From: an uncultured Methanosarcinaceae archaeon | GTDB taxonomy: Archaea; Halobacteriota; Methanosarcinia; Methanosarcinales; Methanosarcinaceae | DNA: 64,000 nucleotides | Assembly (NCBI GenBank): GCA_963847185.1 | Contig: CAWJYV010000008.1 | Span: 640,001 to 704,000, forward strand | Reading direction: 5' to 3' | In this document: piece after piece, positions 5,418 through 27,068 of the stretch | How the letters are laid out: each line of letters starts with the position of its first letter | Position numbering within the stretch: position 1 is the first letter of the stretch | Position numbers and translations under genes: made by a program | The notes under the pieces: generated by a model | Databases searched by the model: none | Told to the model about the DNA's origin: nothing | The model's input: only the letters and a program-made list of their open reading frames with translations

Positions 5418-6194
5418 AACTGATTTTTGAACAATTAAAATGTGCGTCTATGTTTTCAGATTGCCGTGTCATAGAGTAATAGATCTAAGTATTGACTGTC
5501 AACTTTGAATGTTAAATTATTGGATGTTAATTTTGACCGCTGATATCCATATATACGGACAACTGGAAAATAGATAAATTCTGTAGAATAAAATTTCCTT
5601 ATAATTAATAATTCCATAAATTAAGACAATAAAAGTGCAAGAAGATCGAGAGCTAAAGAGATATAAATTAGAATTTTTTCCGAACATTTTAAATAAGAGG
5701 AGTTCATACTAACATTATTTAAAATGTAGGTTTTTTGCGACTTTTTATTGCACAAGTTGGGTAATTTTATTTTTTGCATGGCTTATTTAGAGAAGGAGTG
5801 TAAGGAGTTATTCCGAATAAAAGAAAGTTACCTTAATATTGGAAAATTTCAAAAATTATCAACGAAAATTTCTATCAAAATGTAGGGGCTAATTTGTAAA
5901 TTCCAAGAGACTTGAACAAAACTTTGATAATCTCAACAAAATGAAGAATCTAGATAAGTTTTGGGATCTCTAAGTTTAATACAAAATTAGCCTCTTAACG
6001 ATTTATGGATCGTGGGGGAAACTATAACCAAGTCTGAAAAAACAGGGGTATCATCCAAGTTTGGGAAAATAGAGGTCTTAATTTGCGGCATTGAGGAACT
6101 CGCCCTCGACCATAAATCAATGAAACACGGAAATTGTTAATAATAGCTGGCAATCGGTTTGCTTAGGATAAGCTTTGGATATGGGGGTGTAAAT

Positions 6195-9208: not shown

Positions 9209-9841
9209 TCACCTGCGTAATAGGGAAAAAGCCAATGCAAGAACTGAAACAGAGCCCACAAGTGTGAAAGCTGATGTTGATGCAGACGAAGAAGTGGATC
9301 CTGAAGAGGATGTGGGCGAAGGTTCGGCTTCTGTAACTGGCTGTTCCTTAGAAGTGGGAATTTCACCTTCATAGCGTTCGTTGGAAATAGTGCAGTAGGC
9401 GACTGTAAAACCACCATTAACAAGAGGTTCAGATTCACCATGAGCAAGAATTGTATAATAGATATCTAGAGGTAACGACCCACCTTTCCATCTTTCAGTC
9501 GGTTTTACAGTCCACTCATACTCTCTAGAAGTATTTGCTTCCAAGATATCTCCTTTTGAGTATTCTTCTATTTTTGAAGTTGGACCATTTATAATTTCAA
9601 AAGAATTTCTTTCCATACAAGATAAAGAGACATAGACATCACTTTTTTGATATACTGTGAGATTAATTTTAACTTTAAATGGTTCTTCTACTTTTAAAAA
9701 TGGTTTAGCCATTTCATTTCCAGGTATAATTTTTCCATTGTAATATACATCTATTGAACCGTAAGGAGATTCTGCAAAAGTAATATTTGGTGTAAGCAAA
9801 AAAACTGTAATTAAAAGAAATATACATTTCATTCTCATCAT
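9209..9841 (-). CDS. Sarcinarray-family MAST-domain surface protein
   Basis: Signal peptide, SPYGSIDVYYNG N-terminus, S/T linker, then an SAF + TM + RR C-terminal sorting signal (PGF/PAF-CTERM-like). Confidence 0.8.
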   Translation of the reverse strand: MMRMKCIFLLITVFLLTPNITFAESPYGSIDVYYNGKIIPGNEMAKPFLKVEEPFKVKINLTVYQKSDVYVSLSCMERNSFEIINGPTSKIEEYSKGDILEANTSREYEWTVKPTERWKGGSLPLDIYYTILAHGESEPLVNGGFTVAYCTISNERYEGEIPTSKEQPVTEAEPSPTSSSGSTSSSASTSAFTLVGSVSVLALAFSLLRR

Positions 9842-12800
9842 AATTTCCCTCCTAACTCATCCAAAAGAGTTGCATAATCTTCAGATTCTTCACTGGAGCC
9901 TCCAATTTTGTCTCCAACTCCTTTTGGTCCTGGGCCCACTATTGTTGTTGAATAGCCACTAAAATAAAAAGTAATCATTTCATTAGTCCCTAGTCTTGAT
10001 GCGATTCCACTCTTATCTTTTTTAAAAGGATGAAATATTGGTGATTTTTCTCTCACATACCTCTGCCCTTTATGTCCAAAATAAGGCTCTGGAATCACCT
10101 CGTTATCATTGTCAATAACAGTAAACGACTGATACTTTCCTACAATCTCATACGTCCACACATTCACAGTAAAAATCCAGTGCGGAGGCAATATTGGCAG
10201 ACCACATGGAACAGCTGCCATTGTTCGATCCAGTCTTTTTGAAACCAGGGAGACTTTTTCACCGGAATACTTCCTGGATATTTCGGTTTCCATATTTTTC
10301 AGTTCATTATCGAATCTTACAAAACTGGCATCAAGGGCTTTTCCTCTGGTTGTTGTGACTGCGCAGATGCCGTTTGCAACACCAATTCTGACGTCAGTGT
10401 CGACTCTGTTGAGAGCTGCTTCCAGTTCATCGGGATTGACAGGCGGGTTTGAATTTCGGATTTCTGTTTTGATGGCGGCGGAAAGTTCGGATGCGAACTC
10501 GTCTGTTGTAGTTTTTTCGATCAATTCGTCAGCGGAAAGACTCCTGAAGTAGCTGTATATGACTTCACGCAGACTTTCTTCACTGATCCAGCCTGAAATG
10601 ACAGGATTTGATTTTACTTCGGAGACTACCTCTTTAGTTATTTGAGCTATCATTTCCAAAACGTATGTGTACTTTATGCTGTAGAATTCCCGATTAAGGG
10701 AAGTTGTATCCAGGGAAATGTTCTGTTCGCTAAGATTTTGCCTGAGAAGGAAAAACTCGGTATTCAGGTTGGAAATGCTCTGGCTCATCTGATGGGCGGT
10801 TTCGGTTTTTACGTATTCATCGCTTGAAGCTAAGGCGTCTGCAATTTCCTCGGAGATGCCGGTTGTGAAAATACAGGTGTTCCGAACGCCGAGGGGATAA
10901 ATTGTCTTTCCTGTCATGGAATCGGTCCACTCATATTCTCCTCTGAGGTCGAAATCCGGGTCATGATAGAGATAGTTCGGCTTCTGGTCAATAATCAGGG
11001 TCAGGTTTTCGGTCCAGTTGTACTTGCTCTCTGGCTGGCCGGTAACGGTCATTGTTGAAATGATGCCCATGTCTTTTCCAAGTGCTGAAGAAGCCTTTTT
11101 TATTGCAGGGTTATTGAAAAGAGTCATCGAGCCTGAGGTCACGCTGTCAAGTACGCCAGTATCAAGACCTTTTTTCTTAAGTGCACCCAAAATATAGGAA
11201 TTGAGGTTAGAATCCAGCTTACTGTTTTTCTCTTCGATATCTTTGAGCAGCCTGTTGTAGGCTTCATTTTTTGCAATGTAGCGAGCTGAGTCACTTGAAG
11301 TGTAAATTTTTCCTGAAGGATTGAGGTACTGATTTTTATTTACATAGGAATTCCGGTCTGATTCTAGTTTTCGGATAAGTTTTTCGGAAGCCTTGACCTG
11401 CAGATCTGTCGGATCCTGGCCAGGAGAAGCAACCAGAGAGTAATTGAAGGCTGGATTGTCCTTTTTGACAGAATCAAGCATTGAAAGTACTTCTTCTGCC
11501 ATTAACCTGTGTAACCAGGGTGGAATATCACAGCTGACAACATGTCGGGCAAGATATTTTCGGTCAGGATAAGCCCAGAAACTGCTTTCGATCTTTCTGA
11601 AATCCACATACTTATCCCTATATTTGTCGGCAGCATCGGAACAGCAGGGGTCAAACCTGTTTGTTCCGTTAACATAAACATTCGTTTCTCTATATTCCCT
11701 CGCTGAAGAGCCGGCGTAGCTCGATATGCCTCTATAACCACCTGTAGGAGGGCGCCTGTGGTATATTACTGCCAGGTTCTCAGATTCGGTTTCGGTGTGA
11801 GAAGAAGATTCAGAGTCTATGTAACTTTCAGTTTCGGATTTCGAGCCGCTTGAGGTATCATAATGGGTTACAGTCGTATAATTGCCATCCGGCAATTTCT
11901 CCCTGGTATTCCACTTGTAAGTGTAATCATAACTGTAATCAATTTTCCACTTTGTCCTTATTATGTAGGAGATGCCATAACTGACTTCCCAGTCAAAAAT
12001 ATGATCTTCCCTATTCAGGTAACCTTCACTCCTGTCCGTAACTGTGACTCTGTCGTTACTCTTGTAAAAGTAACGAGGCTCGATTCTCACATCACCTATA
12101 CCAGCAGAAAGCAAACTAACCGAAGCTCCTGTAAGAGACCAGCTGACCATTTTCCCTTTTGGAGGATTAATTGAAGGATTTAAAGATTTAGAATAAGAAT
12201 TTGTAACTACATCACTCCAGGGATAAGAAGGTACAAGAGACCCTGTATGCATTCCTGATGAAAAATAGACTGCTTCCCATCTGACAGTATGCCCGTCAAA
12301 ATGAACTGAATCGCTGTTCAGTTCCGCCGTAAGCTTTGAATCCAGTACACTGGGAGAATCAAAACCGTCTCTAACAATCTGCCCCTGTACAGGAGCCGTG
12401 TAAACGCTATCTGTGACGGTATGAATAAGGTCAGGATTTTCTTTTGTCCACACATGGTCATTGAAAGCCCATCCATCGAGAACGTCATCTATGTAGTCAG
12501 AAGCAGAGACGTTTATTTTCGAATATTCAGAGAGTTGGCCAAAAGATGTATTTCCCTGTTCGATAGATTCCGTGATATCTTTTTCAACGTCCATGGAAAA
12601 GGACCTGTTCTTTGAGAGGGAATCGTAAGTGGTTGTAAGGTTTACGCTCCTGTCCTTTTCATAGAGAGACCCTGAAGCATTGAGGTGGGATGAATAATTT
12701 CCGGTATCGGTATTCTTATTTCTGGAGGCAGAAACGTCTTCATAAAATACCTTTCCGTTGTAATAAGTAGTATAAGTGAGAGCCAGGGGATCAACAGAGT

Positions 12801-13955
12801 CAAAAACTCGTTTCTGAGTGTAAAGCGTGGCTCCGTTAATAGAGCTTGAAAGGGCAGGATTTGTTAGAATATTAAGAGGGCCATTTGCATAATGCTGCCA
12901 GGGGCCGTAAATAAAAGTCCTCAAATTTGTTGCTCCAAGCACGATATTCGATGTAGAATCAGGCCCTGAAGAATTTGCAAGATCAATTTCATATTCCCTG
13001 ACAAGCTCCTCGAGCAGAGGTTCCCTCGAAGTCACAAGCGTTGAAAGAGTCGTACTGCCGTTGAATATTTCTCCTGATTGAAGGTTCACAAAGGTATAAT
13101 TTAGAACAGGAATTTCGAAAACATAGTAAATAGTATAATTTTTAGTCGGAGGTGATATTTCCCTCTGCAAAGTTCCCCTTACTTTTCTTATCCTTATCTG
13201 CTCTGGCTTTATATCAGGTTCTACGTTCACGGCATATTGCATGAAAGTATGGCTATTACTCTGGTAATTTGCAGAAAGCAGCCTGTTAAAAGAGTCTGCC
13301 GTAATATCCTTTACAGGGCTTTCTCCAATCATAAACCAGTCTGCGGCTTTCAGTTCATCTCCGTAATGGAGTTCAATAGATGCATATCCAGAAGCTACAG
13401 AATCCGGAATTTTTGCATATTCCTCGAATGAAACTTTTTGAAAAAAACCAGTAGCTCTTCCGTAGTTAAGATTTTTAATTTCATTGCCTGAAGAATCTTT
13501 GACAATTAGAATAACATCTCGTTTTTTCCAGATACTTTCGATTTTGCCCCACACATCTGAGGGCAGATTTATGGAAATTTGAAGTGTATCTCCTCTTTCA
13601 AGATTCTGATTTTTTACGATAACTTGAAACCCGTTTTTAGAAAGCCTTTCAACAGGCGTACCCTCAGGCAGGATTACAGGATGTTCACCCTGCCATTCAA
13701 GGGCTTCCATTCCTGCATAATTAAGGCAGCGAGCAAGATCGGATACAGCAAGGTTGACAGCTGTCTTCCTGGGATCACTTTTATTTGTTGTATAAATCGT
13801 TTCGGCTACTTCACTGTCCATTTTCAGAAGGTAAACTGAAGTAAAAGTTGCGGCAAGTACAAAGAAAATTCCAATTACAGCAAAAGGGATATACGCACCC
13901 GTACTCCGAAAAAAGCACGATAATTCTTCAGAGAACTTTCCAGTCGTTTATCCAA
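9838..13955 (-). CDS. Very large (about 1370 aa) membrane-anchored/exported hypothetical protein; apparent 1-nt frameshift near the 5' end
   Basis: The 1327-aa ORF from 13821 is preceded in frame by GAYIPFAVIGIFFVLAATFTSVYLLK with no start codon. TTG 13955 joins it only if the A6 run at 13909-13914 is A7. Confidence 0.75.
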
Positions 13956-18418: not shown

Positions 18419-18721
18419 TTAGTAATTCTCAAGCACAGAACCGACAATGTTTTTATAACTTTCTTTCAGGGAATAAACGTTATGATCGCCGCTGACGTTT
18501 ATGCTCAGGATGCCAAGTCTCGTGTTCATAAGCCCAACCATGGCTGACACTCCCCGGTAGCTTACCTCGAAGTTACCTTTGTCGAGGAAGTCATAAACTT
18601 CACCGGTGGTGAACTTGTCTCCGGTCAGGAAGAGATTGAGCACAACTTTGCGTATCCCGTTTTCATCCCTGCCGAGATACTTTATCAATCTCGCTCTTAC
18701 CCTTTCTTCCGCAGTTTGCAG
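18419..18721 (-). CDS. DUF2551-like winged-helix protein; probable CTG start
   Basis: YLGRDENGIRK and VSAMVGLMNTRLGIL. GAGGTG RBS lies 7 nt before in-frame CTG 18721; TTG 18688 is the alternative start. Confidence 0.8.
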   Translation of the reverse strand: MQTAEERVRARLIKYLGRDENGIRKVVLNLFLTGDKFTTGEVYDFLDKGNFEVSYRGVSAMVGLMNTRLGILSINVSGDHNVYSLKESYKNIVGSVLENY

Positions 18722-19260
18722 TTTCGGACACCTCAGTTAATGATAATTTGAATTATACTTCTTGTATTCATTGACTTATATTGATTTTGTATTATATCCA
18801 TACTGTTTTGATTTCAGCTTCTACAGCCCTTGACACGCAACTCTTTAGTGGAACGCTAAGAAACGAATACCCTATATCCTTATCGTTTATATATTTTAGG
18901 ATTGCTTCTTTGAGAGATTTTAAGACCCTCATACAGATTATAAACCTATATATTCCATATAATCCTAAGAGAGTGTATCTAAAACCTCTGAAGATAACAA
19001 ACTGTTAAAATACATTCATCTTTTTATTGAGTTCAATACATTATAAATTTATATTTTTAATATAATAATCTTTCACTTTCTTAAGCTAGTGTCTTTTAAA
19101 ATTTTGTTAAAAGTCGTTGAAGAATGGGATATAAATAAGGTTCTTTCTAGAAGAAAATCTTAAAGAGTCTCTGGCTGGATAGAACATTTAACTTTTCAAG
19201 ATTGTAGAAAGTTCTAGTTACTGCGTTTAAAATACAAACAACTAGTAAATATATCTTTAA

Positions 19261-19983
19261 ATGAATTTATTGTGGAAAGACATGTGCCCTATAGAGTTAA
19301 AATTACCATCTCCACTTCCTCTTGAAAATATACCTGATTTATGGAAACAAAATGAGATTCTAATTTTTCTGATTGACCTTAACAGTTATAACATTCTGAG
19401 TACTGAGCACCTTGACAAGACCGAAAAAGAGCATCTGGAAACATTAAAAACAAACTATTTTAAAAAAAGATATATAGTCTCCAGGATGGTTCTAAAAAAT
19501 ATTGTGATGTATATCCAGGGCGATATATTAAAAGGACAGTCTCTTTCTGATATAGGCACATATAATGATGAATACGGAAAAGTTTGCATACGGAACCATA
19601 GAGAGTTGAACATATGCATTTCATACACAGGGAACATTGCTTCCCTCGCAATATCGAAAGTTGAAGTCGGGATTGATATAGAGCTTAAAAGATTGATCCC
19701 CCCTGGAAATATGTCAAAGTATCTGTGCATTACAGCCTCAGAAGCAGAAGATTTCGGAAACGAGCCTGACTTATTGAGAATATGGACTCTCAAAGAAGCA
19801 TACTGTAAATTTTCGAACAGAACTATGTTATCTACTCTTATCAGAAAACTGGATCTAAGTGGTGTGTTTCATTCAAGCTTTACTTTGAACGACAAATATA
19901 TACTTTCTGTAATTAGCGATACAAACTCACATTCCCTCAACATAAGTTGTCTGTCGAAGATAGAATTATATGAAGATTCTTAA
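19261..19983 (+). CDS. Sfp-type 4'-phosphopantetheinyl transferase
   Basis: YGK...ISYT, VGIDIE and WTLKEAYCK signatures; directly upstream of an ACP. Confidence 0.88.
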   Translation: MNLLWKDMCPIELKLPSPLPLENIPDLWKQNEILIFLIDLNSYNILSTEHLDKTEKEHLETLKTNYFKKRYIVSRMVLKNIVMYIQGDILKGQSLSDIGTYNDEYGKVCIRNHRELNICISYTGNIASLAISKVEVGIDIELKRLIPPGNMSKYLCITASEAEDFGNEPDLLRIWTLKEAYCKFSNRTMLSTLIRKLDLSGVFHSSFTLNDKYILSVISDTNSHSLNISCLSKIELYEDS

Positions 19984-20139
19984 CATTTGAATAAAATATA
20001 CAAACTTACCTTATAATGTAAAGCTCTCTAAAGCAACAGATTGACTTCTCACACGTCTATCAGCAACTCTTTTCTAGGCTATCTTGCTTCTGTTTTTTTG
20101 GAATATTTATTTTATACTTATAAAAAATCCTTCAAATTA

Positions 20140-20147
20140 TTTATATA
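20140..20147 (+). promoter_or_regulatory. Candidate TATA box of the ACP operon
   Basis: TTTATATA about 100 bp upstream of the ACP ATG. Confidence 0.45.
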
Positions 20148-20247
20148 GTTGAATAACATAATTAGTTTTGGGGCTTTCAGATGATAACGGACAGAGTGCA
20201 CTATTCACAATCGATCCGCTAAACGAAAGCAAAGGGGATAACGATAT

Positions 20248-20493
20248 ATGGAACCGATAAAAGATTGTATAATTGATTATTTGAAGGCTAATTCTTTTAT
20301 GGATAAGGACGCTCACGTCAGTGACGTTGACTCTCTTACTCAGAATGGCATTGTAGATTCTATTGGGCTGCTTGAACTTATGGATTATATCTGTGAAAAA
20401 TATTCTATCGAAATTCCAGAAGACATGCTAACTCCAGAGAATTTTGACACACTACAGGGAATTACCAATATGATAGGTAAACTGGCGAAGTGA
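20248..20493 (+). CDS. Acyl/aminoacyl carrier protein
   Basis: 81 aa and acidic; GIVDSIGLLEL phosphopantetheine site; PENFDT C-terminal motif of DltC-like/ACP2-type carriers. Confidence 0.92.
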   Translation: MEPIKDCIIDYLKANSFMDKDAHVSDVDSLTQNGIVDSIGLLELMDYICEKYSIEIPEDMLTPENFDTLQGITNMIGKLAK

Positions 20494-20509
20494 AACGAAG
20501 TGAAGAAAT

Positions 20510-21988
20510 ATGCGACTTGATGCGTATATTACTGAATACGCCAGAGAAACTCCTCAAAATATTGCCCTGGAAGAGGGCAAAAATTCAATTTCCTATAGCT
20601 GTCTTGATAAAGACATAAATATCATTGTTTCGCCCCTGATGAATTTTAAACAGTGCAGATTTGCAGTACTGGCAGAATCTGGCATACAGTATGTAAAATT
20701 ACTTATGGCAGTATATAGGTCAGAAAATATCGCAATACCTCTGCCGATAGAATTTCCTAAGTTCAGTCTTGAGCGAATACTTGATTCTGCATATGTCAAA
20801 AATATAATTACGACTGAGACGCAATACTCAAGGTTTGGGGAGATTTTTTTTGAGCGTTTTGGAACAGTGATCATTGTTTCGGGAGATGCTTCAGTAAAGG
20901 TTCTAAGAAATAAAATCGAAGTTGAAAATAATAACCCGGAACTGAGGCTGGTCCTGTACACGTCGGGTACAACAGGCACCCCAAAAGGGGTAATGTTGAG
21001 TGACAGAAACCTTGCAGTAAATGGAGAATCAATAATAAAAGTTATTGGAATCACTTCTAAAGATAAAGGGGCCCTGATAATATCCCCACATCATGCTTTC
21101 GGGAATTCTATAATCAATTCCCACCTGATGGCTGGAGGCTCTATCCGAATCGGAAACATGAATTTTATAGACTCGGTTTTCAATCTTATTGAGTCAAAAG
21201 TATCAATTTTCTACGGAGTGCCAAGCACCTATCGTATGCTTCTCAAGTATCCGGACAGATTCAAAAAAGCCTTTAGTAGTGTCAGGACCGCTGCTTCCGC
21301 AGGTGGAGGCATGGACAGGACAATTGTAAAGGAAATTCGGGGCCTGGTTCCTGGAATTGAGATTCTACCAATGTACGGGCAAACAGAAGCTACTGCAAGG
21401 CTTGCCTATGTGCCAGCAGAAGATGTTGATAAATTCTTAGACACAATAGGAAAAGCTATTCCTGGAGTTACTCTGGACGTTTTTGATTCTGAGTGCAGGC
21501 CAGTTGGGTCAAACATAACAGGGGAACTGGTCGCCAGAGGAGACAATATCCTGTTAGGCTACCTTGACGATGAAATCGCTACTAAAAAGAGGATCATAAA
21601 CGGCTGGCTTCATACAGGAGATCTCGCACAAAAGCTGCCAAATGGGTATATAAGGCTGCTGGGGCGCAAGGATGACCTTATAAAAATTGGGGACCATCGG
21701 GTGAATCCCAGAGAAATTGAGAGGCTCATTGAAGAGAATAATGATGTTTCCAAGGTTTTCGTTGTGCCTGTATCCCACGAACTTATGGGAACTGCAATCA
21801 GCCTTATGGTCATACCTGCAGAAAAGACAGAACTTGAGAGTCTATTTGCCTTCTGCAGGAAGAGCCTGCCAGCTTACCTGTGCCCGAGAGAAATACTGTT
21901 CATCGATCATCTTCCATTGAGCGAGAACGGGAAAATATCCAATCGATCCATAATAGAGGAATACAATCATGTCAAAGCTAGTGTGTAA
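20510..21988 (+). CDS. AMP-forming acyl/aminoacyl-carrier-protein ligase (ANL superfamily)
   Basis: YTSGTTGTPKG, MYGQTEA, WLHTGDL, GRKDDLIK and ENGKI. Confidence 0.92.
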   Translation: MRLDAYITEYARETPQNIALEEGKNSISYSCLDKDINIIVSPLMNFKQCRFAVLAESGIQYVKLLMAVYRSENIAIPLPIEFPKFSLERILDSAYVKNIITTETQYSRFGEIFFERFGTVIIVSGDASVKVLRNKIEVENNNPELRLVLYTSGTTGTPKGVMLSDRNLAVNGESIIKVIGITSKDKGALIISPHHAFGNSIINSHLMAGGSIRIGNMNFIDSVFNLIESKVSIFYGVPSTYRMLLKYPDRFKKAFSSVRTAASAGGGMDRTIVKEIRGLVPGIEILPMYGQTEATARLAYVPAEDVDKFLDTIGKAIPGVTLDVFDSECRPVGSNITGELVARGDNILLGYLDDEIATKKRIINGWLHTGDLAQKLPNGYIRLLGRKDDLIKIGDHRVNPREIERLIEENNDVSKVFVVPVSHELMGTAISLMVIPAEKTELESLFAFCRKSLPAYLCPREILFIDHLPLSENGKISNRSIIEEYNHVKASV

Positions 21989-23021
21989 AAAGTGTGTTCT
22001 GGATTCGGATATTCCAGGTATAACTTTTAATAAGGAAACAGGGCTATGCCATTTCTGTGAGACATATGCTCCCCTTTCTGTTCAGGAAAAAAATGAATAT
22101 CTGACAAAAATTGAGGAGCTTTTTAAGGAATACCGGGGGAAAGGTACCTATGATGTAATTTATGCCCTTTCCGGGGGGAAAGATTCTTCGTACACACTTT
22201 ACAAGCTCAAAAAAGACTATCCCTTCCTGAAGGTGCTGGCTGTCCAGTTTCAAAATGGATTCACCTCCGAAGGTGCGGTAAAAAATGCAAAAAAGATGTG
22301 TAAGATAACAGGCTCCGATTATTTTCAGCTGACTATGGAAAAGGAAATTCTTTATGAGACTTTCCGGAAGGCGGCAGAATCTTATGATGCATTTCCGAAG
22401 TTTGCTAAATACCGGGCGAGTGATATCTGCAATACCTGTATTACTATCATCAAACAGAAACTGATAGAACAGGCAATTGTTCACAAAGCACCTTTTATTG
22501 TATTTGCTTTTACAGGCGGACAGTCTCCAAACCCAATCATTAACCTTTCACCCAACTTTATACAGTGGTCCAGAAGCCTGTTTGAGAAACAGCTTGAAAA
22601 AATAGGTATTAACGATAAAGATGAACTCTTCCTCATCAAAAAAGAGATCGTTGAAAATATGGGGGACTCTGCCCTAAGTATTCTGCATCCTCTCTGTCTA
22701 TGGGAATACAGTGAAGATAAAGTAGTGGATACACTTTTGAAGATTGGATGGGAGCAGCCTAATATTAATGACAGTAATTCAACCAATTGTACCTTGAACG
22801 CTTTCGCATGCTATAACCACCTGGAAAAATACGGGTTCCATCCATACGCCTTTGATACGGCAGGACTTGTGCGAAGCGGGGAAATGTCCAGGGAAGAAGG
22901 GTTTGAAAAAATCAATCAGGAATTATCAAGACCATTAATAGAAGAAGCTGCAAAGAAGCTTAAAATGAATGTTAAGAGCTTGAATGTAAAAGACTCTCAT
23001 AAAATACTAACGACAATTTGA
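21969..23021 (+). CDS. N-type ATP pyrophosphatase (PP-loop), WbpG/N-acetyl-sugar amidotransferase-like
   Basis: N-terminal CKKC...CHFC, ALSGGKDSSY, ICNTC, STNC and VRSGEMSREE; overlaps the ligase gene by 20 nt. Confidence 0.82.
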   Translation: MSKLVCKKCVLDSDIPGITFNKETGLCHFCETYAPLSVQEKNEYLTKIEELFKEYRGKGTYDVIYALSGGKDSSYTLYKLKKDYPFLKVLAVQFQNGFTSEGAVKNAKKMCKITGSDYFQLTMEKEILYETFRKAAESYDAFPKFAKYRASDICNTCITIIKQKLIEQAIVHKAPFIVFAFTGGQSPNPIINLSPNFIQWSRSLFEKQLEKIGINDKDELFLIKKEIVENMGDSALSILHPLCLWEYSEDKVVDTLLKIGWEQPNINDSNSTNCTLNAFACYNHLEKYGFHPYAFDTAGLVRSGEMSREEGFEKINQELSRPLIEEAAKKLKMNVKSLNVKDSHKILTTI

Positions 23022-23096
23022 GCTGGAAGTACAGTTCACTAATTTAACAATAGACATTCGTATAAAAATCGTTCCAATAATTATGGGGGAAAAACT

Positions 23097-24089
23097 ATGC
23101 AGGTAGCAAAAGAAATGAACATAAACATAATGGAAGAGCTGACTAGAGACATTGGAAGTGTAGCTCTAAATCTAAGAAGTTTTATTAAAGACCAAATCGT
23201 AGGTTTTAAGAAAAAAGGAGCAGTGTTAGGAGTATCCGGCGGAATTGATTCGGCTGTAGCTCTTACCCTTTGCGTGCAGGAGTTGGGGAAGGAAAATGTT
23301 TACGGGATCCTGCTGCCTGAGAAAGAGTCGGCTCCTTCAAGCAAAGTTCTGGGTGCAGAAATTTGCGAAAGTCTTGGTGTAGAATATGAGGAAGTTCCTA
23401 TCTCTCCAATTCTTAAATCACTTAACATTTATAAGAAGAAAGATGACCTTATAAAAAGGGTCTGTCCGGAGTATAACCCCAGGATACATAAAACCTCGCT
23501 GGTTCTTCCTGATTTCCTTGAGCAGGGCCTTTTGAACGTTCCTTACATTCGATTGATGAAAGGTGATGAAACTGTTGGGAAGTACAGGTTGAAGGCAAAT
23601 GACTATCTGGAACTTATCGGGTTACAGGGTGTCAAGCAGAGGTCCAGAATGATGGTTCAGTATATGTATGCCGAACAGATGAACTATGTAGTTTGCGGCA
23701 CAACAAATAAAACCGAGCTGGTCCTGGGTCAGTTTGTGAAATACGGAGACGGAGGTGTAGATCTCGAACCCCTTGCTGATTGTTATAAGACACAGATCTA
23801 CGCTCTTGGTAGACATTTAAAAGTCAACGAAGAGATTATGAAGCGTCCTCCAAGTGCCGATACCTGGAGCCATTATACAACTGACCAGGAATTCTACTGG
23901 CGGATGCCTATAAATATTATGGATCAGTTGCTGTATTCATTTGAACATAAATTACCTTGTAGTGTAATTGAAAAGAATACAGGCCTCCCCAGAGACAAGA
24001 TAGAAAAAACTAGAAGGCACCTCGGAAGAATAAAGAGTACAACAGAATATATTAGGTCCACTCCTCCGGTTTATTATCTTGACAGATAA
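23097..24089 (+). CDS. nadE: NH3-dependent NAD synthetase-like protein (NadE paralog with a large insertion)
   Basis: GVSGGIDS, GTTNKTE, KYGDGGVD, KTQIYALG and PPSAD. About 60 extra residues precede the KQRSRM helix, so the true substrate is uncertain. Confidence 0.8.
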   Translation: MQVAKEMNINIMEELTRDIGSVALNLRSFIKDQIVGFKKKGAVLGVSGGIDSAVALTLCVQELGKENVYGILLPEKESAPSSKVLGAEICESLGVEYEEVPISPILKSLNIYKKKDDLIKRVCPEYNPRIHKTSLVLPDFLEQGLLNVPYIRLMKGDETVGKYRLKANDYLELIGLQGVKQRSRMMVQYMYAEQMNYVVCGTTNKTELVLGQFVKYGDGGVDLEPLADCYKTQIYALGRHLKVNEEIMKRPPSADTWSHYTTDQEFYWRMPINIMDQLLYSFEHKLPCSVIEKNTGLPRDKIEKTRRHLGRIKSTTEYIRSTPPVYYLDR

Positions 24090-24299: not shown

Positions 24300-25439
24300 G
24301 TGATTATGAATACCAAGGTTTCTATTGTTCGCTGTAGCGATTATTCAAAAGCAAAAGATGCAATTAGAGAGTCGCTTAATTTGATAGGCGGCTTTGAGAA
24401 GATCATATCTCCTGGAAGCCGCGTACTGCTCAAACCCAATGTACTTGCCGCTCGGCCTCCAGAGGATGCTGTCACAACTCATCCGGCAGTAGTTTCTGCA
24501 ATGTGTGAACTGATTTTGGAGATTGGCGGAATTCCGGTTATAGGAGATGGGTCAGGAATTGTAGGGTCAGGATCTACAAACACTTCTAAAGCGTTTAAAA
24601 TATCGGGAATTGAAGATGTCGCGTCCAGTTGCGAGGTAGAATTAATCAACTTTGAGACCTCTGGTTATATTGAAGTCGATGTTCCCAATGCCAGGGAATT
24701 CCAGCGTCTGCACATAGCAAAAGCCGTACTCGAAGCAGATGTAATAATTTCACTTCCAAAGCTCAAGACCCATGAGCTCACACTCTACACGGGAGCTGTA
24801 AAAAATTTCTTTGGTACTATTCCTCAGAAAAACAGAAAACAGGCTCATTTCCTGGAAGACCGTGATCGCTTTGGAAATGCAGTTGTCGATATATACTCAA
24901 TCGTCAAACCTCATCTCGCAGTCATGGACGGGGTGCTTGGAATGGAGGGCAACGGCCCTTCAAACGGTGCGCCTGTTTTTGCAGGTGTGATCATGGCAAG
25001 CTATGACTGTGTATCCCTGGATATTGCGGCTTCCGAACTCATAGGATTTGACCCCTTGAAGGTCCCTACAAATAAAGCTGCTCTCTCAAGAGGGTTTGGA
25101 ACCGAACATCCCGAGATTGTAGGAGTACCACTGGACAGTTTAAAGGTCAAGTTTAAAGAGCCAGAAGGTGGAATTACTGCCCATGTGCCACATTTCCTTA
25201 TGAGGGTCCTCCGAAAGCAGTTAACTGTAAAACCTTTTATCAACACTTCAACCTGCGCCTTTTGTAAAGCCTGCGTTTTAAACTGTTCAGCACATGCTAT
25301 TGAGGAAGCGGGAAAAACACTTAAAATTAACCAAAAAAAATGTATCCAGTGCTATTGTTGTCGGGAACTTTGTCCCAATGATGCAGTAGAAATAAGGAAA
25401 TCCTTTATATTGAGACTTGTAACTAGAATTAAAAGCTAA
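24300..25439 (+). CDS. DUF362 protein with C-terminal 2x[4Fe-4S] ferredoxin domain
   Basis: VLLKPN, TTHP, LPKLKTH, GAVKNFFG, GMEGNGP and two CxxCxxCxxxC motifs. Confidence 0.9.
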   Translation: MIMNTKVSIVRCSDYSKAKDAIRESLNLIGGFEKIISPGSRVLLKPNVLAARPPEDAVTTHPAVVSAMCELILEIGGIPVIGDGSGIVGSGSTNTSKAFKISGIEDVASSCEVELINFETSGYIEVDVPNAREFQRLHIAKAVLEADVIISLPKLKTHELTLYTGAVKNFFGTIPQKNRKQAHFLEDRDRFGNAVVDIYSIVKPHLAVMDGVLGMEGNGPSNGAPVFAGVIMASYDCVSLDIAASELIGFDPLKVPTNKAALSRGFGTEHPEIVGVPLDSLKVKFKEPEGGITAHVPHFLMRVLRKQLTVKPFINTSTCAFCKACVLNCSAHAIEEAGKTLKINQKKCIQCYCCRELCPNDAVEIRKSFILRLVTRIKS

Positions 25440-25564: not shown

Positions 25565-26098
25565 ATGAGTGAAGTAATATCTAACAGAGATAAAGTAACT
25601 TTTAATGAGGTAGCCGATCATTATCATAGTAACAAACTCCTTTTTGGACTAAAATATTTTAAGAACTGGGTTCTGGAAAGACTGGCTTCATGCGTTCCTG
25701 TTCCTACCTGGAGGGTAAAATTTCACAGAATGAGAGGAGTTAATCTCGGGAAGAATGTTTATGTAGGTTATGATGTTGTTTTTGATCGCATTCATCCTGA
25801 ATTAATTACGGTAGGAGATTATTCAGAAATTGGGGATAGATGCATCCTCTCTGCACATTCGAGAGGCAGTTTAACTACAAGACAGGCTTATCCGAGAAGT
25901 ATGGAACCTATCATAATTGGACGTGGAGTATCTGTTAATCCTGGATGCATAATTACTCAAGGGGTCGAGATAGGAGATAATTCCATAATAGGAATAGGAT
26001 CAGTAGTTACCCGTGATATTTCTCCAAATAGTCTTGCTCTTGGCTACCCTGCCAAAGTTGTTAAAAAACTTGAGGGTGTAGGCGAGCTTCAAACCTGA
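25565..26098 (+). CDS. Hexapeptide-repeat (left-handed beta-helix) O-acyltransferase
   Basis: GVNLGKNVYVG, IIIGRGV, GVEIGDNSIIGIGSVVTRDI and GYPAKVVK. Confidence 0.88.
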   Translation: MSEVISNRDKVTFNEVADHYHSNKLLFGLKYFKNWVLERLASCVPVPTWRVKFHRMRGVNLGKNVYVGYDVVFDRIHPELITVGDYSEIGDRCILSAHSRGSLTTRQAYPRSMEPIIIGRGVSVNPGCIITQGVEIGDNSIIGIGSVVTRDISPNSLALGYPAKVVKKLEGVGELQT

Positions 26099-26358
26099 TT
26101 TTGATAATCCTATTATCTCTTATAAGGGGATTTATAATCTTTATTTCCCTTCTTTATTTTCCCTTCTTTATTTTTCCTTCAATTTTAAAGTCAAATTTTT
26201 TCTGATTTCAATGAGAGGAAATCTTGATCGTATATTTCTATTCTTAGCGTCTAATTCCTGATTCCTGAGCACTTGTTCAAAGAAAGACTAAGGAAAAAGA
26301 AGAATAATAGGATTGGAAAAACAGGAATAAGTCTAAAAAATGAGACAAAGAAAAGAGA

Positions 26359-26943
26359 TCATTTATCGGATTTGTATTTGAATTCGAAACCAAGCTTATT
26401 CAGAGCAAAAAGTGCCATCATTATCACAAAGAAAACAGCAAATACCGATACAAAAGACTTTAAGAGATAGAGCATGAGCCCATTTTCTTGAAAACCCGAA
26501 TCCATCAAAGAGGACAATTTTATTGTTCCATCGTATATCGGATATAAGTAATTAATACCGTTTTCACTAACGTCATCAAGTAAGAGATGAGTCAGGAAAG
26601 CCGCTTCTCCAAATAGACCCAAATATATTGCTTTGTCAAGTTTCCGGTATGCAAGATAACCCACAAGCGTTCCAAATATTATTGCAGAGGAACTAAATAA
26701 TAATGAATGCGTTGGGATCGGGCCAGCCCAGCAATGCCCTAAATTACCGTTTACGAATATATTATAAACGGCCATAATATCCGGAAATAGAGTGCATAAA
26801 CTGCCTATAAACAGAAGCAATAGGAGTGAGGGCATGTCCCTTAATGAGAGCTCCCCGCGAAAAAGAGATCTTATAACCGCATAGACAGCTACTGCGCTGA
26901 TGCAGAACACAAAGAATAAAACATGCGCAACTGGATAGGGCAT
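26359..26943 (-). CDS. Membrane-bound metal-dependent hydrolase (YdjM-like)
   Basis: N-terminal H, LFPD, THSLLF and THLLLD in a multi-TM protein. Confidence 0.85.
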   Translation of the reverse strand: MPYPVAHVLFFVFCISAVAVYAVIRSLFRGELSLRDMPSLLLLLFIGSLCTLFPDIMAVYNIFVNGNLGHCWAGPIPTHSLLFSSSAIIFGTLVGYLAYRKLDKAIYLGLFGEAAFLTHLLLDDVSENGINYLYPIYDGTIKLSSLMDSGFQENGLMLYLLKSFVSVFAVFFVIMMALFALNKLGFEFKYKSDK

Positions 26944-27068
26944 AATAGGACACTTTTTTAATATATTTATTTGAATTAAAAGAGAAGATGTTTTGTAAGT
27001 ATATAATACTTATCACAAATATTGAAAGAGAATCCAATATTTATTACGATATTTAAAAAAGAATCTCC

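What the first reader, a model, noticed from the sequence alone, without database searches (positions are those of the whole stretch)
19261..24089. Archaeal carrier-protein (ACP) cluster with two PP-loop amide-forming enzymes
Seen: co-oriented PPTase, ACP (DSIG), ANL ligase, SGGKDS WbpG-like enzyme and SGGIDS NadE paralog; ACP through NadE are tightly spaced (gaps of 16, -20 and 75 nt). There is no ketosynthase, condensation domain, thioesterase or glutaminase (HisH-type) gene. Established: most archaea lack ACP-based fatty-acid synthesis; ligase/carrier pairs such as DltA/DltC load acyl or aminoacyl groups for transfer to envelope polymers; PP-loop enzymes adenylate carboxylates to form amides. 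Inference: a self-contained pathway tethers a small acid or amino acid on the ACP and ligates or amidates it, perhaps onto uronic acids of methanochondroitin or S-layer glycans, or builds a small metabolite or cofactor.
Basis: partly seen in the sequence, partly recalled or inferred. Interest (0 to 1): 0.8.

Follow-up and report, generated by a model that had tools for sequence, protein, structure and literature searches.

The report
Carrier-protein amide-tailoring cluster in Methanosarcina
A methanogen carries a compact, self-sufficient set of genes that appears to hang a small acid on a carrier protein and chemically rework it with two ATP-using enzymes, a module that also sits, uncharacterised, in many bacterial cell-surface sugar gene clusters.

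Summary
The five genes are real, at the stated coordinates and spacings. The window is a Methanosarcina genome. Its only PPTase and only carrier protein lie here.

The "WbpG-like" enzyme has the fold and zinc motif of N-acetyl sugar amidotransferases but is a separate subfamily. It has an almost invariant extra Cys triad (104 of 105 relatives) that 12 of 12 genuine archaeal amidotransferases lack. It has no HisH/HisF partner. Relatives are fused to ANL ligases or inserted inside NRPS modules. These traits recall CtaC, the carrier-dependent Fe-S thioamide synthetase.

The "NadE paralog" (NF002048) is a dedicated partner. Among 401 genomes, it and the PP-loop gene occur in the same 29, side by side. 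A model docks the carrier's Ser38 onto a NadE2-specific insertion (0.62 against 0.01 for controls).

In metagenomes the module recurs as carrier + ANL + (NadE2 or AsnB, never both) + PP-loop enzyme, often in polysaccharide or exosortase loci.

Best reading: a thiotemplated acid → amide → thioamide (or amidine/nitrile) pathway that probably decorates an envelope glycan. The chemistry and the acceptor are inferred. I rate it a new variant of a known kind.

The parts
19261..19983 (+). Sfp-type 4'-phosphopantetheinyl transferase; the only PPTase in the genome
   Evidence: PF01648 scores 26.5 bits against a cut-off of 25. GID is at 137 and WTLKE at 175. It is the only PF01648 match in the genome. 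It diverges faster than its neighbours: 43-89% identity in 16 of 24 related loci.
20248..20493 (+). Stand-alone carrier protein (81 aa); phosphopantetheine site Ser38
   Evidence: PF00550 scores 20.4 bits, E 6e-4. It is the best of only two weak PF00550 matches in the genome. D37-S38 is invariant in 33 relatives. The family profile matches type II peptidyl carrier proteins first (2my5, E 4.8e-15; PigG, PltL, DltC), ahead of fatty-acid-synthase ACPs.
20510..21988 (+). ANL (adenylate-forming) ligase, presumed loader of the carrier protein
   Evidence: PF00501 scores 174.5 bits and PF13193 scores 47 bits. No NCBIfam equivalog reaches its cut-off. Phe or Gly stands where LgrA has the A4 Asp. The gene overlaps the next gene by 20 nt. 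P0126 is a natural fusion of homologues of both genes (38% and 37% identity).
21969..23021 (+). PP-loop ATP pyrophosphatase with the NASAT fold, an N-terminal zinc tetracysteine and an extra Cys triad (C154, C157, C274); proposed carrier-dependent amide-activating enzyme
   Evidence: TIGR03573 scores 126.6 bits, under the 203.2 cut-off. The AF2 model has pLDDT 94.6. The best fold match is 8wex (TM 0.68), followed by [4Fe-4S] NcsA, TtuA and LarE. The triad is conserved in 104 of 105 relatives and absent in 12 of 12 true NASATs. ANL fusions and NRPS-embedded forms exist.
23097..24089 (+). NadE2: NH3-type NAD-synthetase paralog (NF002048) with a 53-residue insertion; proposed amidase of a carrier-bound carboxylate
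   Evidence: NF002048 scores 472.9 bits against a cut-off of 313. A canonical NadE lies elsewhere in the genome. NF002048 and the PP-loop gene are found in the same 29 of 401 genomes, adjacent. It has a 53-residue insertion relative to the canonical NadE. Docking of the ACP to the dimer scores 0.62 against a best control of 0.01.
24300..25439 (+). DUF362 protein with a C-terminal 2x[4Fe-4S] ferredoxin domain; lineage-specific companion, role unknown
   Evidence: PF04015 scores 209 bits, with Fer4 families alongside. It follows NadE2 in 20 of 24 related loci and in L075 and L077. It is absent next to the Methanococcoides, L073 and L074 clusters, and is seen in 0 of 69 distant metagenome loci.
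25565..26098 (+). Left-handed beta-helix (hexapeptide) acyltransferase; candidate for transfer of the finished acyl group
   Evidence: PF00132 scores 38.2 bits. WcaF, Maa and EpsC-like NCBIfam models match, all under their cut-offs. It is syntenic with DUF362. Hexapeptide transferases lie in the gene neighbourhood of 12 of 76 metagenome loci.

Best explanation
This is a self-contained, non-canonical thiotemplated pathway.

Proposed steps:
1. The cluster's own Sfp-type PPTase converts the genome's only carrier protein to its holo form.
2. The ANL ligase adenylates a small acid that lacks an alpha-amino group and carries a second carboxylate. It loads this acid as a thioester on Ser38-phosphopantetheine.
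3. NadE2, an NAD-synthetase paralog that docks the carrier through a family-specific insertion, adenylates the free carboxylate and turns it into a primary amide with ammonia.
4. The NASAT-fold PP-loop enzyme, which carries a TtuA/CtaC-like three-cysteine site, adenylates that amide oxygen and replaces it. Replacement by sulfur (a thioamide) is most likely. Replacement by NH (an amidine) or loss of water (a nitrile) is also possible.
5. The finished acyl group is passed, probably by the LbH acyltransferase, to an envelope glycan.

What the sequence and comparisons show: the identity and completeness of the parts; the strict coupling of the two PP-loop enzymes; fusions of the PP-loop enzyme with thiotemplate machinery; and the predicted NadE2-carrier docking.

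What is inferred: the substrate, the order of steps, the sulfur chemistry and the acceptor.
For: Parts and self-sufficiency:
- The parts and their motifs are confirmed.
- The genome has one PPTase and one carrier protein, both here.

Coupling and conservation:
- The PP-loop gene and NF002048 occur in the same 29 of 401 sampled Halobacteriota genomes, adjacent to each other. The other 372 genomes have neither over threshold.
- NF002048 rings in only 1 of 14 control genomes, M. acetivorans.
- Order is conserved in 20 of 24 loci. All five genes persist, though rearranged, at about 50% identity in two other methanogen families.

Thiotemplate link of the PP-loop enzyme:
- Relatives are fused C-terminally to ANL ligases (P0126, P0137).
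- Others sit between AMP-binding and AMP-binding_C/PP-binding in C-A-PCP modules (P0224, P0230, P0251).
- P0126 matches both overlapping window genes and is sister to the archaeal clade (SH-aLRT 96, quick tree).

Cys triad:
- C154, C157 and C274 are kept in 104 of 105 relatives and are invariant in A1.
- They are absent in 12 of 12 archaeal proteins over the TIGR03573 cut-off. Three of 4 of those checked have HisH-like neighbours instead.
- LpNASAT has Asp at the third position.
- After 8wex, the next fold matches are [4Fe-4S] sulfur insertases.
- CtaC is described with D77/S78, C154/C157/C284, a [4Fe-4S] cluster and obligate carrier-bound substrates (PMC6772006, parts 1 and 2 of 3 read, which hold the whole main text).

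NadE2:
- It has a 53-residue insertion relative to the genome's canonical NadE.
- Complex prediction (NadE2 x2 + carrier) scored 0.62, against 0.01 for the best of 3 controls. That mark was reached by 58 of 80 solved complexes and 2 of 110 mismatched pairs. These counts hold only roughly here, because my own alignments and a dimer were used. The runs agree in at least 91% of contacts, and partner pLDDT is at least 79.
- Carrier residues 36-43, around Ser38, touch NadE2 residues 138, 143-149 and 164-171 (inside the insertion) and 307-316.

The amide-forming step is interchangeable:
- In 69 distant metagenome loci, NadE2 (18) or AsnB (20) lies within 6 kb of the PP-loop gene. They never occur together (0).
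- In the 20 loci with at least 5 kb on both sides: ANL 19, carrier 13, NadE2 or AsnB 16.
- NadE2 and AsnB swap between sister sequences on the tree.

Substrate hints:
- There is no Asp at the LgrA A4 position.
- The nearest stand-alone solved ligases are oxalyl- and malonyl-CoA synthetases.
- The best NCBIfam model for the carrier is AmcB, at 42.8 bits, under its cut-off.

Glycan link:
- Searches give the contexts.
- Recurrent neighbours are sugar epimerase/dehydratases (10 loci), polysaccharide deacetylases (9 and 8 loci), exosortase EpsH (5) and Bac_transf (5).

Expression:
- RNA-library contigs of a strain 95-99% alike cover the carrier-to-NadE2 genes in 4 runs of one study. Contigs bridge the ANL/PP-loop overlap. 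Contigs cannot prove transcription or operon structure.
Against: - Fe-S binding by the triad is inferred. His284 is conserved in at least 90% of A1, so a Cys3-His zinc site is not excluded.
- The CtaC sequence itself could not be obtained, so kinship rests on described features and matching context.
- Sinorhizobium meliloti pSymB has asnB-ACP-ANL-NadE2 with no PP-loop gene within 10 kb. Either AsnB can stand in for the PP-loop enzyme, which favours nitrogen chemistry over sulfur chemistry, or that variant makes a different product.
- There is no sulfur-mobilising gene in the cluster.
- The ligase's best solved match is an amino-acid-activating domain (LgrA, E 1e-48). The carrier resembles aminoacyl carriers. 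The substrate could therefore be an acidic amino acid or something else.
- A FabG-like reductase follows NadE2 in the other genera (L036, L038, L075-L078) but is missing here. There is no orthologue in the genome; the best match is 38% identical. The model does not explain this gene.
- In the window itself there is no glycosyltransferase or flippase among the ORFs annotated.
- Only 13 of 69 distant loci show the glycan genes I labelled, and many of those contigs are short.
- A few relatives sit in PKS or NRPS settings instead: 3 of 69 loci, plus the Bacillus thuringiensis plasmid cluster.
Confidence: 0.5

Rival explanations
1. The SGGKDS enzyme is a WbpG/WbuX-type amidotransferase and NadE2 is a second amidase. 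Both act directly on sugar substrates (acetamido to acetamidino; uronic acid to uronamide or an amino-acid amide), while the ligase/carrier pair supplies an acyl or aminoacyl group as DltA/DltC do.
For: - The enzyme shares its full-length fold with LpNASAT 8wex (TM 0.68, E 2.4e-13).
- It has the NASAT tetracysteine motif and PP-loop, as defined in PMC10607449 (passages read).
- Glycan genes lie next to the cluster in Methanococcoides and a Methanomicrobiaceae genome and in 8 of 20 full-flank metagenome loci.
- From recall, no call: AsnB-type enzymes that replace NadE2 are known uronamide formers.
Against: - The TIGR03573 score is under the cut-off (126.6 against 203.2).
- 12 of 12 genuine members lack the triad, and most of those checked have HisH/HisF neighbours, which this family lacks.
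- Fusion to ANL and insertion inside NRPS adenylation domains point to carrier-bound substrates, not sugar-bound ones.
- NadE2 is predicted to dock the carrier at Ser38.
- The Dlt models score far under their cut-offs.
Confidence: 0.2
2. The cluster makes a small diffusible metabolite, for example a thioamide or thiocarboxylate metal chelator or an antibiotic in the manner of closthioamide. The product is released from the carrier and is not attached to a glycan.
For: - The PP-loop enzyme has CtaC-like features and a thiotemplate context.
- Its nearest bacterial branch includes a type-II-PKS-like plasmid cluster in Bacillus thuringiensis and L104.
- An NRPS-embedded clade exists.
- No glycosyltransferase or flippase was seen next to the cluster in this window.
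- The neighbouring DUF362-ferredoxin protein could serve redox chemistry or release.
Against: - There is no thioesterase, condensation domain, transglutaminase-like enzyme or exporter in or beside the cluster.
- Most informative distant loci are in polysaccharide or exosortase settings, not natural-product settings: KS or C domains in 2 of 20 full-flank loci, glycan genes in 8 of 20.
- A hexapeptide acyltransferase is syntenic in Methanosarcina.
Confidence: 0.2
3. NadE2 is simply a second NAD+ synthetase, as automatic annotation says. The neighbouring genes are an unrelated remnant of horizontally acquired fatty-acid or NRPS machinery with no joint function.
For: - NF002048 is named NAD(+) synthase and the protein passes its cut-off.
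- ATP-site motifs of NadE are kept: SGGIDS, TTNKTE and GDGGVD are invariant in A2.
- Some copies of the cluster are decaying. The ANL is split in L031, NadE2 is truncated in L028, and there are stops in G019 and G027.
Against: - A canonical NadE exists in the genome.
- NF002048 is found only in genomes that have the PP-loop gene, and next to it (29 of 29; 0 of the other 372 over cut-off).
- It recurs beside the carrier and ANL genes in bacteria.
- It has a conserved 53-residue insertion that forms the predicted carrier-binding surface.
- Its sequence is strongly conserved (mean column identity 56% in A2).
Confidence: 0.05

Closest known systems
CtaC and the closthioamide pathway of Ruminiclostridium cellulolyticum (non-canonical thiotemplated assembly; PMC6772006, PMC7183216)
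   Same: Both use stand-alone carrier proteins, an ANL-type loader and a PP-loop (AANH) enzyme. That enzyme has the ATP motif and a CxxC...C triad and acts only on carrier-bound substrates. Homologues lie mostly next to thiotemplate genes, including NRPSs. All of this is as described in the paper. It matches the family features found here.
   Different: - There is no ATP-grasp, papain-like ligase or transglutaminase here, and no peptide backbone to thioamidate. The only amide would be the one made by NadE2.
- NadE2 has no counterpart in the closthioamide pathway as described.
- Most relatives of this module lie in glycan loci.
- Direct sequence comparison with CtaC was not possible.
N-acetyl sugar amidotransferases (NASAT: WbuX, WbpG, LpNASAT; PDB 8wex; TIGR03573)
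   Same: They share the overall fold (TM 0.68), the PP-loop SGGKDS and the N-terminal zinc tetracysteine CxxC...[GN]xCxxC. Presumably they also share the chemistry of activating an amide oxygen by adenylation.
   Different: - The window protein scores under the family cut-off.
- It has an extra Cys triad in a central segment that true members lack (0 of 12).
- It has no HisH/HisF ammonia-delivery partners (one search shows these beside true members).
- It is partnered with a carrier protein, an ANL ligase and NadE2 or AsnB.
NH3-dependent NAD+ synthetase NadE (PF02540)
   Same: NadE2 has the same fold family, PP-loop and ATP/Mg motifs. It is 33% identical to the genome's own NadE. The chemistry is presumably the same: a carboxylate is adenylated and then amidated by ammonia.
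   Different: - NadE2 has a 53-residue insertion and a C-terminal extension. Together these form the predicted carrier-docking surface.
- Its occurrence follows the PP-loop/carrier module, not NAD metabolism.
- It is interchangeable with AsnB-type amidotransferases in related loci.
AsnB-family amidotransferases acting in thiotemplated or glycan pathways (recalled examples: OxyD for the malonamyl starter of oxytetracycline; WbpS for uronamides)
   Same: They form a primary amide from a carboxylate within a biosynthetic cluster. AsnB genes take the place of NadE2 in 20 of 69 related loci.
   Different: These are a different protein family with their own glutaminase domain. The named examples come from memory and were not examined in any call.
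Exosortase (PEP-CTERM/EpsH)-associated ligase, carrier and amidotransferase gene sets (TIGR03098 ligase_PEP_1 and companions)
   Same: TIGR03098 is among the best models for the window's ligase (207 bits) and the best for the S. meliloti one (457 bits), both under the cut-off. Exosortase and PEP-CTERM-type deacetylase genes recur next to distant relatives.
   Different: The function of those bacterial sets is itself unknown; the model type is 'hypothetical equivalog'. No exosortase or archaeosortase gene was seen beside the archaeal clusters examined.
DltA/DltC D-alanylation system
   Same: Both have a stand-alone ANL enzyme that loads a small stand-alone carrier protein for envelope modification.
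   Different: The Dlt models score far under their cut-offs. There are no DltB or DltD counterparts. The ligase lacks the alpha-amino-binding Asp. Two PP-loop tailoring enzymes are added.

Membership tests
N-acetyl sugar amidotransferase (NASAT/WbuX, TIGR03573) | Score at or above the curated family cut-off (203.2 bits) | tested here: not met
   The score is 126.6 bits, full length. Genuine archaeal members score 221-392 bits.
N-acetyl sugar amidotransferase (NASAT/WbuX, TIGR03573) | PP-loop SGGxDS and the N-terminal tetracysteine CxxCxn[GN]xCxxC (definition from PMC10607449, passages read) | tested here: met
   SGGKDS is at 68. C6, C9, C27 and C30 are present, with G25-L-C27. These are conserved in 102-105 of 105 relatives and in 12 of 12 true members.
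N-acetyl sugar amidotransferase (NASAT/WbuX, TIGR03573) | Adjacent HisH-like glutaminase and HisF-like partner (WbuY/WbuZ type) | tested here: not met
   None is found among the ORFs from 14 to 30 kb or in the related loci labelled. By contrast, 3 of 4 true-member loci checked have a GATase gene next door, and 2 of those also have a HisF-like gene.
CtaC-type thiotemplated thioamide synthetase (Fe-S AANH) | ATP-binding Asp-Ser of the PP-loop plus three conserved Cys (CxxC...C) that bind a [4Fe-4S] cluster | tested here: inconclusive
   D72/S73 and C154/C157/C274 are present and conserved in 104 of 105 relatives. CtaC is described with D77/S78 and C154/C157/C284. Metal binding cannot be tested here, and a Cys3-His zinc site is not excluded (H284).
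CtaC-type thiotemplated thioamide synthetase (Fe-S AANH) | Acts only on carrier-protein-bound substrates | not testable with these tools
   The support is indirect: ANL fusions and insertion in C-A-PCP modules, and a carrier gene (35) or ANL gene (37) within 6 kb in 49 of 69 distant loci.
CtaC-type thiotemplated thioamide synthetase (Fe-S AANH) | Sequence kinship with CtaC (Ccel_3258) itself | not tested
The supplementary alignment and homologue list of PMC6772006 are closed.
NAD+ synthetase NadE (PF02540 / NF002048) | Family model over cut-off and ATP-site motifs | tested here: met
   PF02540 scores 178.5 bits and NF002048 scores 472.9 bits against a cut-off of 313. SGGxDS, TTNKTE and GDGGxD are invariant in 22 relatives.
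NAD+ synthetase NadE (PF02540 / NF002048) | Serves NAD synthesis (amidates NaAD); expected wherever NAD is made this way | tested here: inconclusive
   A canonical NadE is present elsewhere in the genome. NF002048 is over cut-off in only 29 of 401 genomes, always beside the PP-loop gene, and in 1 of 14 control genomes. Docking to the carrier is predicted. Activity on NaAD was not measured.
Sfp-type phosphopantetheinyl transferase | PF01648 over cut-off, with the GxD and WxxKE motifs | tested here: met
   The score is 26.5 bits against a cut-off of 25. GID is at 137 and WTLKE at 175 (the motif definitions are recalled).
Acyl/peptidyl carrier protein (PF00550) | Four-helix carrier domain with a conserved Asp-Ser attachment site | tested here: met
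   PF00550 scores 20.4 bits, marginally under the 20.8 cut-off. D37-S38 is invariant in 33 relatives. The family profile hits solved carrier proteins at E 4.8e-15.
DltA/DltC | Equivalog models TIGR01734 (DltA) and NF003464 (DltC) over cut-off | tested here: not met
   The scores are 135.8 against 559.85, and 19.6 against 68.

The most novel reading that the evidence does not exclude
Methanosarcinaceae and many bacteria build a sulfur-containing (thioamide) or amidine/nitrile acyl decoration for cell-surface polysaccharides on a carrier protein. Two new enzyme activities would be involved. One is an NAD-synthetase-family amidase that works on acyl-carrier-protein substrates. The other is an Fe-S, NASAT-fold amide-activating enzyme. 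This would be a thiotemplated glycan-tailoring route with no described precedent, and the first functional carrier-protein pathway in methanogens.
Probability: 0.25. Interest if true: 0.85.

Novelty: new variant of a known kind. Interest (0 to 1): 0.7.

Why it matters
Carrier-protein chemistry is regarded as nearly absent from archaea (recalled background; I found no paper to cite for it). Here it is conserved in almost every Methanosarcina genome sampled and brings its own PPTase.

The work re-labels two widely mis-annotated families. NF002048, annotated "NAD(+) synthase", behaves as a dedicated carrier-linked amidase. Proteins annotated "QueC", "TilS" or "hypothetical" form a Cys-triad branch of the sugar amidotransferase fold that is tied to thiotemplate machinery.

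The same module sits uncharacterised in many bacterial exopolysaccharide and exosortase loci and on rhizobial megaplasmids. One biochemical study could therefore explain a recurrent unknown in surface-glycan clusters. It could also extend carrier-dependent thioamidation beyond the single closthioamide example.

The test is straightforward: four small soluble proteins and mass spectrometry of the carrier.

Tried and rejected
- Literature searches found no description of this cluster or module. Only listings and abstracts were seen. PMC9385802 was searched for ACP passages and says nothing on archaeal ACPs. The statement that archaea generally lack ACP-based fatty-acid synthesis is therefore from recall.
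- The library lacks most subscription journals, so absence from print is not shown.
- The metagenome scan failed twice because the machine was busy. It succeeded on the third try.
- The CtaC sequence could not be obtained. PMC7183216 passages gave no family detail.
- A 412-aa Methanosarcina WbuX-like paralog (G007, 178.9 bits, under cut-off) was meant as a true-NASAT outgroup. It appears to carry the triad too, so genuine members were fetched instead.
- The 76-aa ORF in L073 is not recognisably a carrier protein. That locus's carrier gene was not found.
- A 370-aa GNAT-like protein shared by L073 and L074 (34% identical) has no homologue in this genome (nothing rang).
- There is no orthologue in this genome of the FabG-like reductase seen in other genera.
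- RNA contigs leave the PPTase gene (19004-20005) and 26352-27000 uncovered. Holes in contig cover prove nothing.
- The careful tree did not finish. Only the quick tree with SH-aLRT support was used.
- The ESM Atlas gave only generic names.
- The wider window holds housekeeping genes and no glycan island.
- Sigma-70 promoter scans were not run, because archaeal promoters are not covered.

Full report

One search lists five co-oriented ORFs at exactly the stated coordinates. The spacings are 16 nt, a 20-nt overlap and 75 nt, and the PPTase sits 264 nt upstream of the carrier gene.

Family scans and motif checks give the following:
- **PPTase:** Sfp-type. PF01648 scores 26.5 bits against a cut-off of 25. 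GID is at 137 and WTLKE at 175.
- **Carrier protein:** 81 aa. PF00550 scores 20.4 bits against 20.8. The attachment site is D37-S38.
- **ANL ligase:** the core motifs are intact.
- **PP-loop protein:** SGGKDS is at 68. The only full-length model hit is TIGR03573 (WbuX), at 126.6 bits against a cut-off of 203.2.
- **NadE paralog:** NF002048 (PRK00876) scores 472.9 bits against a cut-off of 313.

No ketosynthase, condensation, thioesterase or glutaminase domain appears among the ORFs annotated from 14 to 30 kb.

**Where the cluster lives.**

Related loci name the organism as a Methanosarcina. The genome, 99.8% complete, has a canonical NadE elsewhere. It has only one PPTase match and effectively one carrier protein, both in this cluster.

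**Conservation in archaea.**

- The PP-loop gene is strongly matched in 34 of the 36 other same-genus genomes drawn. It is broken by stops in G019, and some genomes hold two or three copies. It was strongly matched in none of the 24 genomes drawn from other families of the order.
- In 24 public loci from Methanosarcina and Methanococcoides, the order carrier-ANL-PP-loop-NadE2 is kept in 20. The PPTase is detected in 16 and diverges faster (43-89% identity). DUF362-ferredoxin plus a hexapeptide acyltransferase follow in 20.
- In the other genera (L036, L038, L075-L078), a FabG-like reductase follows NadE2 directly. This window lacks it, and the genome has no orthologue.
- In an even sample of 401 genomes of the phylum, the PP-loop gene is present in 29. 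These are 26 of 52 other genomes of the same family, the window's own genome, and two genomes of other families.
- NF002048 passes its cut-off in exactly those 29 genomes, next to the PP-loop gene. It rings in only 1 of 14 control genomes, M. acetivorans.
- In the two outlying genomes all five genes are present but rearranged, at about 50% identity. One sits beside a GT4 glycosyltransferase, a Wzx-like flippase and a GNAT-like protein. The other sits beside DUF1616.
- In Methanococcoides alaskense, a MocA-type oxidoreductase and a UDP-sugar dehydrogenase lie directly upstream, and a disaggregatase-repeat protein lies nearby.

**What the "WbpG-like" enzyme is.**

An exhaustive search of protein representatives found 67 relatives at E of 1e-30 or better. 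Some are fused behind ANL ligases (P0126, P0137). Others lie between the AMP-binding core and the AMP-binding_C/PP-binding parts of condensation-adenylation-carrier modules (P0224, P0230, P0251). P0126 resembles both overlapping window genes (38% and 37% identity), so the two adjacent genes here exist elsewhere as one protein.

An alignment of 105 relatives shows that three further cysteines, C154, C157 and C274, are each kept in 104 of 105. This is in addition to the PP-loop and the N-terminal CxxC...CxxC motif (the three are invariant in A1).

The AF2 model is confident (pLDDT 94.6). Its best fold match is the Legionella N-acetyl sugar amidotransferase 8wex (TM 0.68). The next matches are the [4Fe-4S] sulfur insertases NcsA, TtuA and LarE, and the thioguanine enzyme YcfA.

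The paper on 8wex defines the family by the PP-loop and a zinc tetracysteine (passages read). The window protein has both.

Genuine members differ in three ways:
- Twelve archaeal proteins over the TIGR03573 cut-off all keep the zinc motif and PP-loop. None has a cysteine at any triad position, and the segment that holds C154/C157 is missing in them.
- Three of four loci checked have a HisH-like gene next door. Two of those also have a HisF-like gene.
- LpNASAT itself has Asp at the third triad position.

The window protein therefore belongs to a distinct branch of this fold.

Four features match the published description of CtaC, the closthioamide thioamide synthetase (PMC6772006, parts 1 and 2 of 3 read, which hold the whole main text):
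- the ATP motif;
- the CxxC...C triad;
- the absence of an ammonia-delivery partner;
- physical fusion to thiotemplate machinery.

As described there, CtaC is an Fe-S PP-loop enzyme with D77/S78 and C154/C157/C284. It works only on carrier-bound substrates, and its homologues lie mostly beside thiotemplate genes. I could not obtain the CtaC sequence, and the paper's supplements are closed. Membership of CtaC's own family is therefore untested.

**What the NadE paralog is.**

- It is 33% identical to the genome's own NadE and carries a 53-residue insertion.
- The ATP-site motifs are invariant in 22 relatives. No cysteine is conserved.
- A complex prediction of the NadE2 dimer with the carrier scored 0.62, against 0.01 for the best of three controls. 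That mark was reached by 58 of 80 solved complexes and 2 of 110 mismatched pairs. These counts apply only roughly here, because I used my own alignments and a dimer. The runs agree in at least 91% of contacts, and partner pLDDT is at least 79.
- Carrier residues 36-43, around the attachment Ser38, touch NadE2 residues 138, 143-149 and 164-171 (within the insertion), residues 307-316, and residues 38 and 196 of the other protomer.

This supports binding but does not show it. I know of no solved NadE-carrier complex that the model could have memorised.

**The wider module.**

On plasmids, NF002048-type genes occur in 116 records, mostly rhizobial. In S. meliloti pSymB the set is asnB-ACP-ANL-nadE (NF002048 scores 533 bits). 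No PP-loop gene lies within 10 kb.

A Bacillus thuringiensis plasmid has ACP, PP-loop and two ANL genes. Two more carrier genes, ketosynthases, FabZ, FabG, AsnB and a PPTase follow.

A metagenome scan with the family alignment returned 80 loci. Of these, 69 are distant relatives with a called PP-loop ORF. Within 6 kb of that ORF the counts were as follows:

| Gene within 6 kb | All 69 loci | The 20 loci with at least 5 kb on both sides |
|---|---|---|
| ANL | 37 | 19 |
| Carrier | 35 | 13 |
| NadE2 | 18 | 10 |
| AsnB | 20 | 6 |
| NadE2 or AsnB | 38 | 16 |
| NadE2 and AsnB together | 0 | 0 |
| Labelled glycan genes | 13 | 8 |
| Ketosynthase or condensation domain | 3 | 2 |

Typical orders are ACP-ANL-NadE2-PP-loop and AsnB-ACP-ANL-PP-loop.

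On a quick maximum-likelihood tree:
- The archaeal sequences form one clade (SH-aLRT 99), sister to the ANL fusion P0126.
- The NRPS-embedded forms are a separate clade.
- NadE2 and AsnB association switches between close sisters, needing 12 and 16 changes respectively.

Recurrent unlabelled neighbours are:
- sugar epimerase/dehydratases (10 loci);
- polysaccharide deacetylases (9 and 8 loci);
- exosortase EpsH (5);
- initiating sugar transferases (5);
- nucleotidyltransferases (5);
- class-III aminotransferases (3).

The module is thus widespread in bacteria. It lies mainly in exopolysaccharide settings and appears uncharacterised. No paper was found in the searches.

**Mechanism proposed.**

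Shown by sequence and comparison:
- a dedicated PPTase/carrier pair;
- an ANL loader;
- two PP-loop ATPases that always travel together;
- a PP-loop enzyme family fused to thiotemplate modules;
- an amide-forming partner that can be NadE2 or AsnB;
- a predicted NadE2-carrier interface at Ser38.

Inferred:
- The ligase loads an acid that lacks an alpha-amino group. There is no Asp where LgrA has its A4 Asp. The role of that Asp is recalled knowledge.
- The acid bears a second carboxylate. The nearest stand-alone solved ligases are oxalyl- and malonyl-CoA synthetases. The carrier's best model is AmcB. That AmcB carries a dicarboxylic keto acid is recalled.
- NadE2 or AsnB converts the free carboxylate to a primary amide.
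- The Cys-triad enzyme adenylates that amide oxygen and exchanges it. By analogy with CtaC, TtuA and LarE, exchange for sulfur is most likely. An amidine (NASAT-like) or a nitrile (QueC-like) is the alternative.
- A hexapeptide or GNAT-like transferase moves the product to a glycan amine or hydroxyl. That site may have been exposed by the deacetylases seen in bacterial loci.

**Points against or unexplained.**

- Fe-S binding is unproven. His284 is at least 90% conserved, so a zinc site is possible.
- The rhizobial variant replaces the PP-loop enzyme rather than NadE2, which argues for nitrogen chemistry or a different product.
- The ligase's best solved match is an amino-acid-activating domain. 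The carrier resembles aminoacyl carriers.
- The FabG-like reductase of sister genera and the DUF362-ferredoxin have no assigned step.
- This window has no glycosyltransferase nearby. Only UppS and the acetyltransferase are there.

**Expression.**

Contigs from four metatranscriptome runs of one sludge study, from a strain 95-99% alike, cover the carrier-to-NadE2 genes and parts of the DUF362 and acetyltransferase genes. Two contigs bridge the ANL/PP-loop overlap. These contigs come from RNA libraries. They do not prove transcription, strand or operon structure.

**Verdict.**

The finding is real and conserved. The enzyme labels need revision. One enzyme is a Cys-triad, thiotemplate-linked branch of the NASAT fold. 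The other is a carrier-docking NadE paralog.

I rate it a new variant of a known kind (non-canonical thiotemplated tailoring), with interest 0.7.

Noticed in passing
window 18419-18688 (-): A DUF2551 protein (89 aa) is divergently placed upstream of the PPTase. It is 90-97% identical across species, while its neighbours are 45-89% identical. That is unusually strong conservation for a small protein of unknown function. It may be a regulator.
   Followed up: no
L036, L038, L075-L078 (e.g. L075:7292-8032 -): A FabG-like 3-oxoacyl-ACP reductase follows NadE2 in other Methanosarcinaceae genera (L075-L078, Methanococcoides L036/L038); the copy scanned (L075) scores TIGR01830 276 bits against a cut-off of 298. 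It is absent from the Methanosarcina clusters and from this genome.
   Followed up: partly
G032, G006, G029, G288, G024, G027; L028, L031, L035, L037: Several Methanosarcina genomes hold two or three copies of the cluster in different surroundings. Some copies have no recognisable PPTase gene upstream, and some are decaying. Examples are the split ANL in L031, the truncated NadE2 in L028, and stops in G019 and G027.
   Followed up: partly
L081 (Sinorhizobium meliloti pSymB, record 282702-287508): Rhizobial megaplasmids carry asnB-ACP-ANL-nadE(NF002048) as a four-gene set next to minCDE. In all, 116 plasmid records hold the NadE2-type gene, mostly Sinorhizobium, Azospirillum, Ensifer, Shinella and Mesorhizobium.
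   Followed up: partly
L082 (Bacillus thuringiensis HD1002 plasmid, record 319250-332137): This is a type-II-PKS-like cluster. It holds a Cys-triad PP-loop gene (annotated QueC), three carrier proteins, two ANL ligases, two ketosynthase-like genes, FabZ, FabG, a thioesterase, AsnB, a PPTase and a radical SAM gene. The same layout is seen in metagenome locus L104.
   Followed up: no
L079:1224-2462 (G007) and similar hits: A second NASAT-like paralog of 380-420 aa is found in about nine of 36 Methanosarcina genomes, but not in this one. It scores under the TIGR03573 cut-off (178.9 bits). By alignment it also seems to carry the CxxC...C triad.
   Followed up: partly
L073:5912-7036 and L074:12002-13114: A GNAT-like protein of about 370 aa is shared by the two non-Methanosarcinaceae clusters (34% identical) and by metagenome loci L129 and L133. 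It has no family assignment beyond a weak GNAT hit. It is a candidate transferase.
   Followed up: partly
L039 (JBASIK010000157.1, 2.5 kb): A short contig filed under a Bacteroidales MAG carries PP-loop and NadE2 genes 74-80% identical to the Methanosarcina ones. It is probably a binning contaminant, not a bacterial copy.
   Followed up: no
window 6159-7526 (+) and 9838-13821 (-): An Orn/DAP/Arg-type PLP decarboxylase lies 12 kb upstream of the cluster. Beside it is a 1327-aa DUF7286 protein. No link to the cluster was seen.
   Followed up: no
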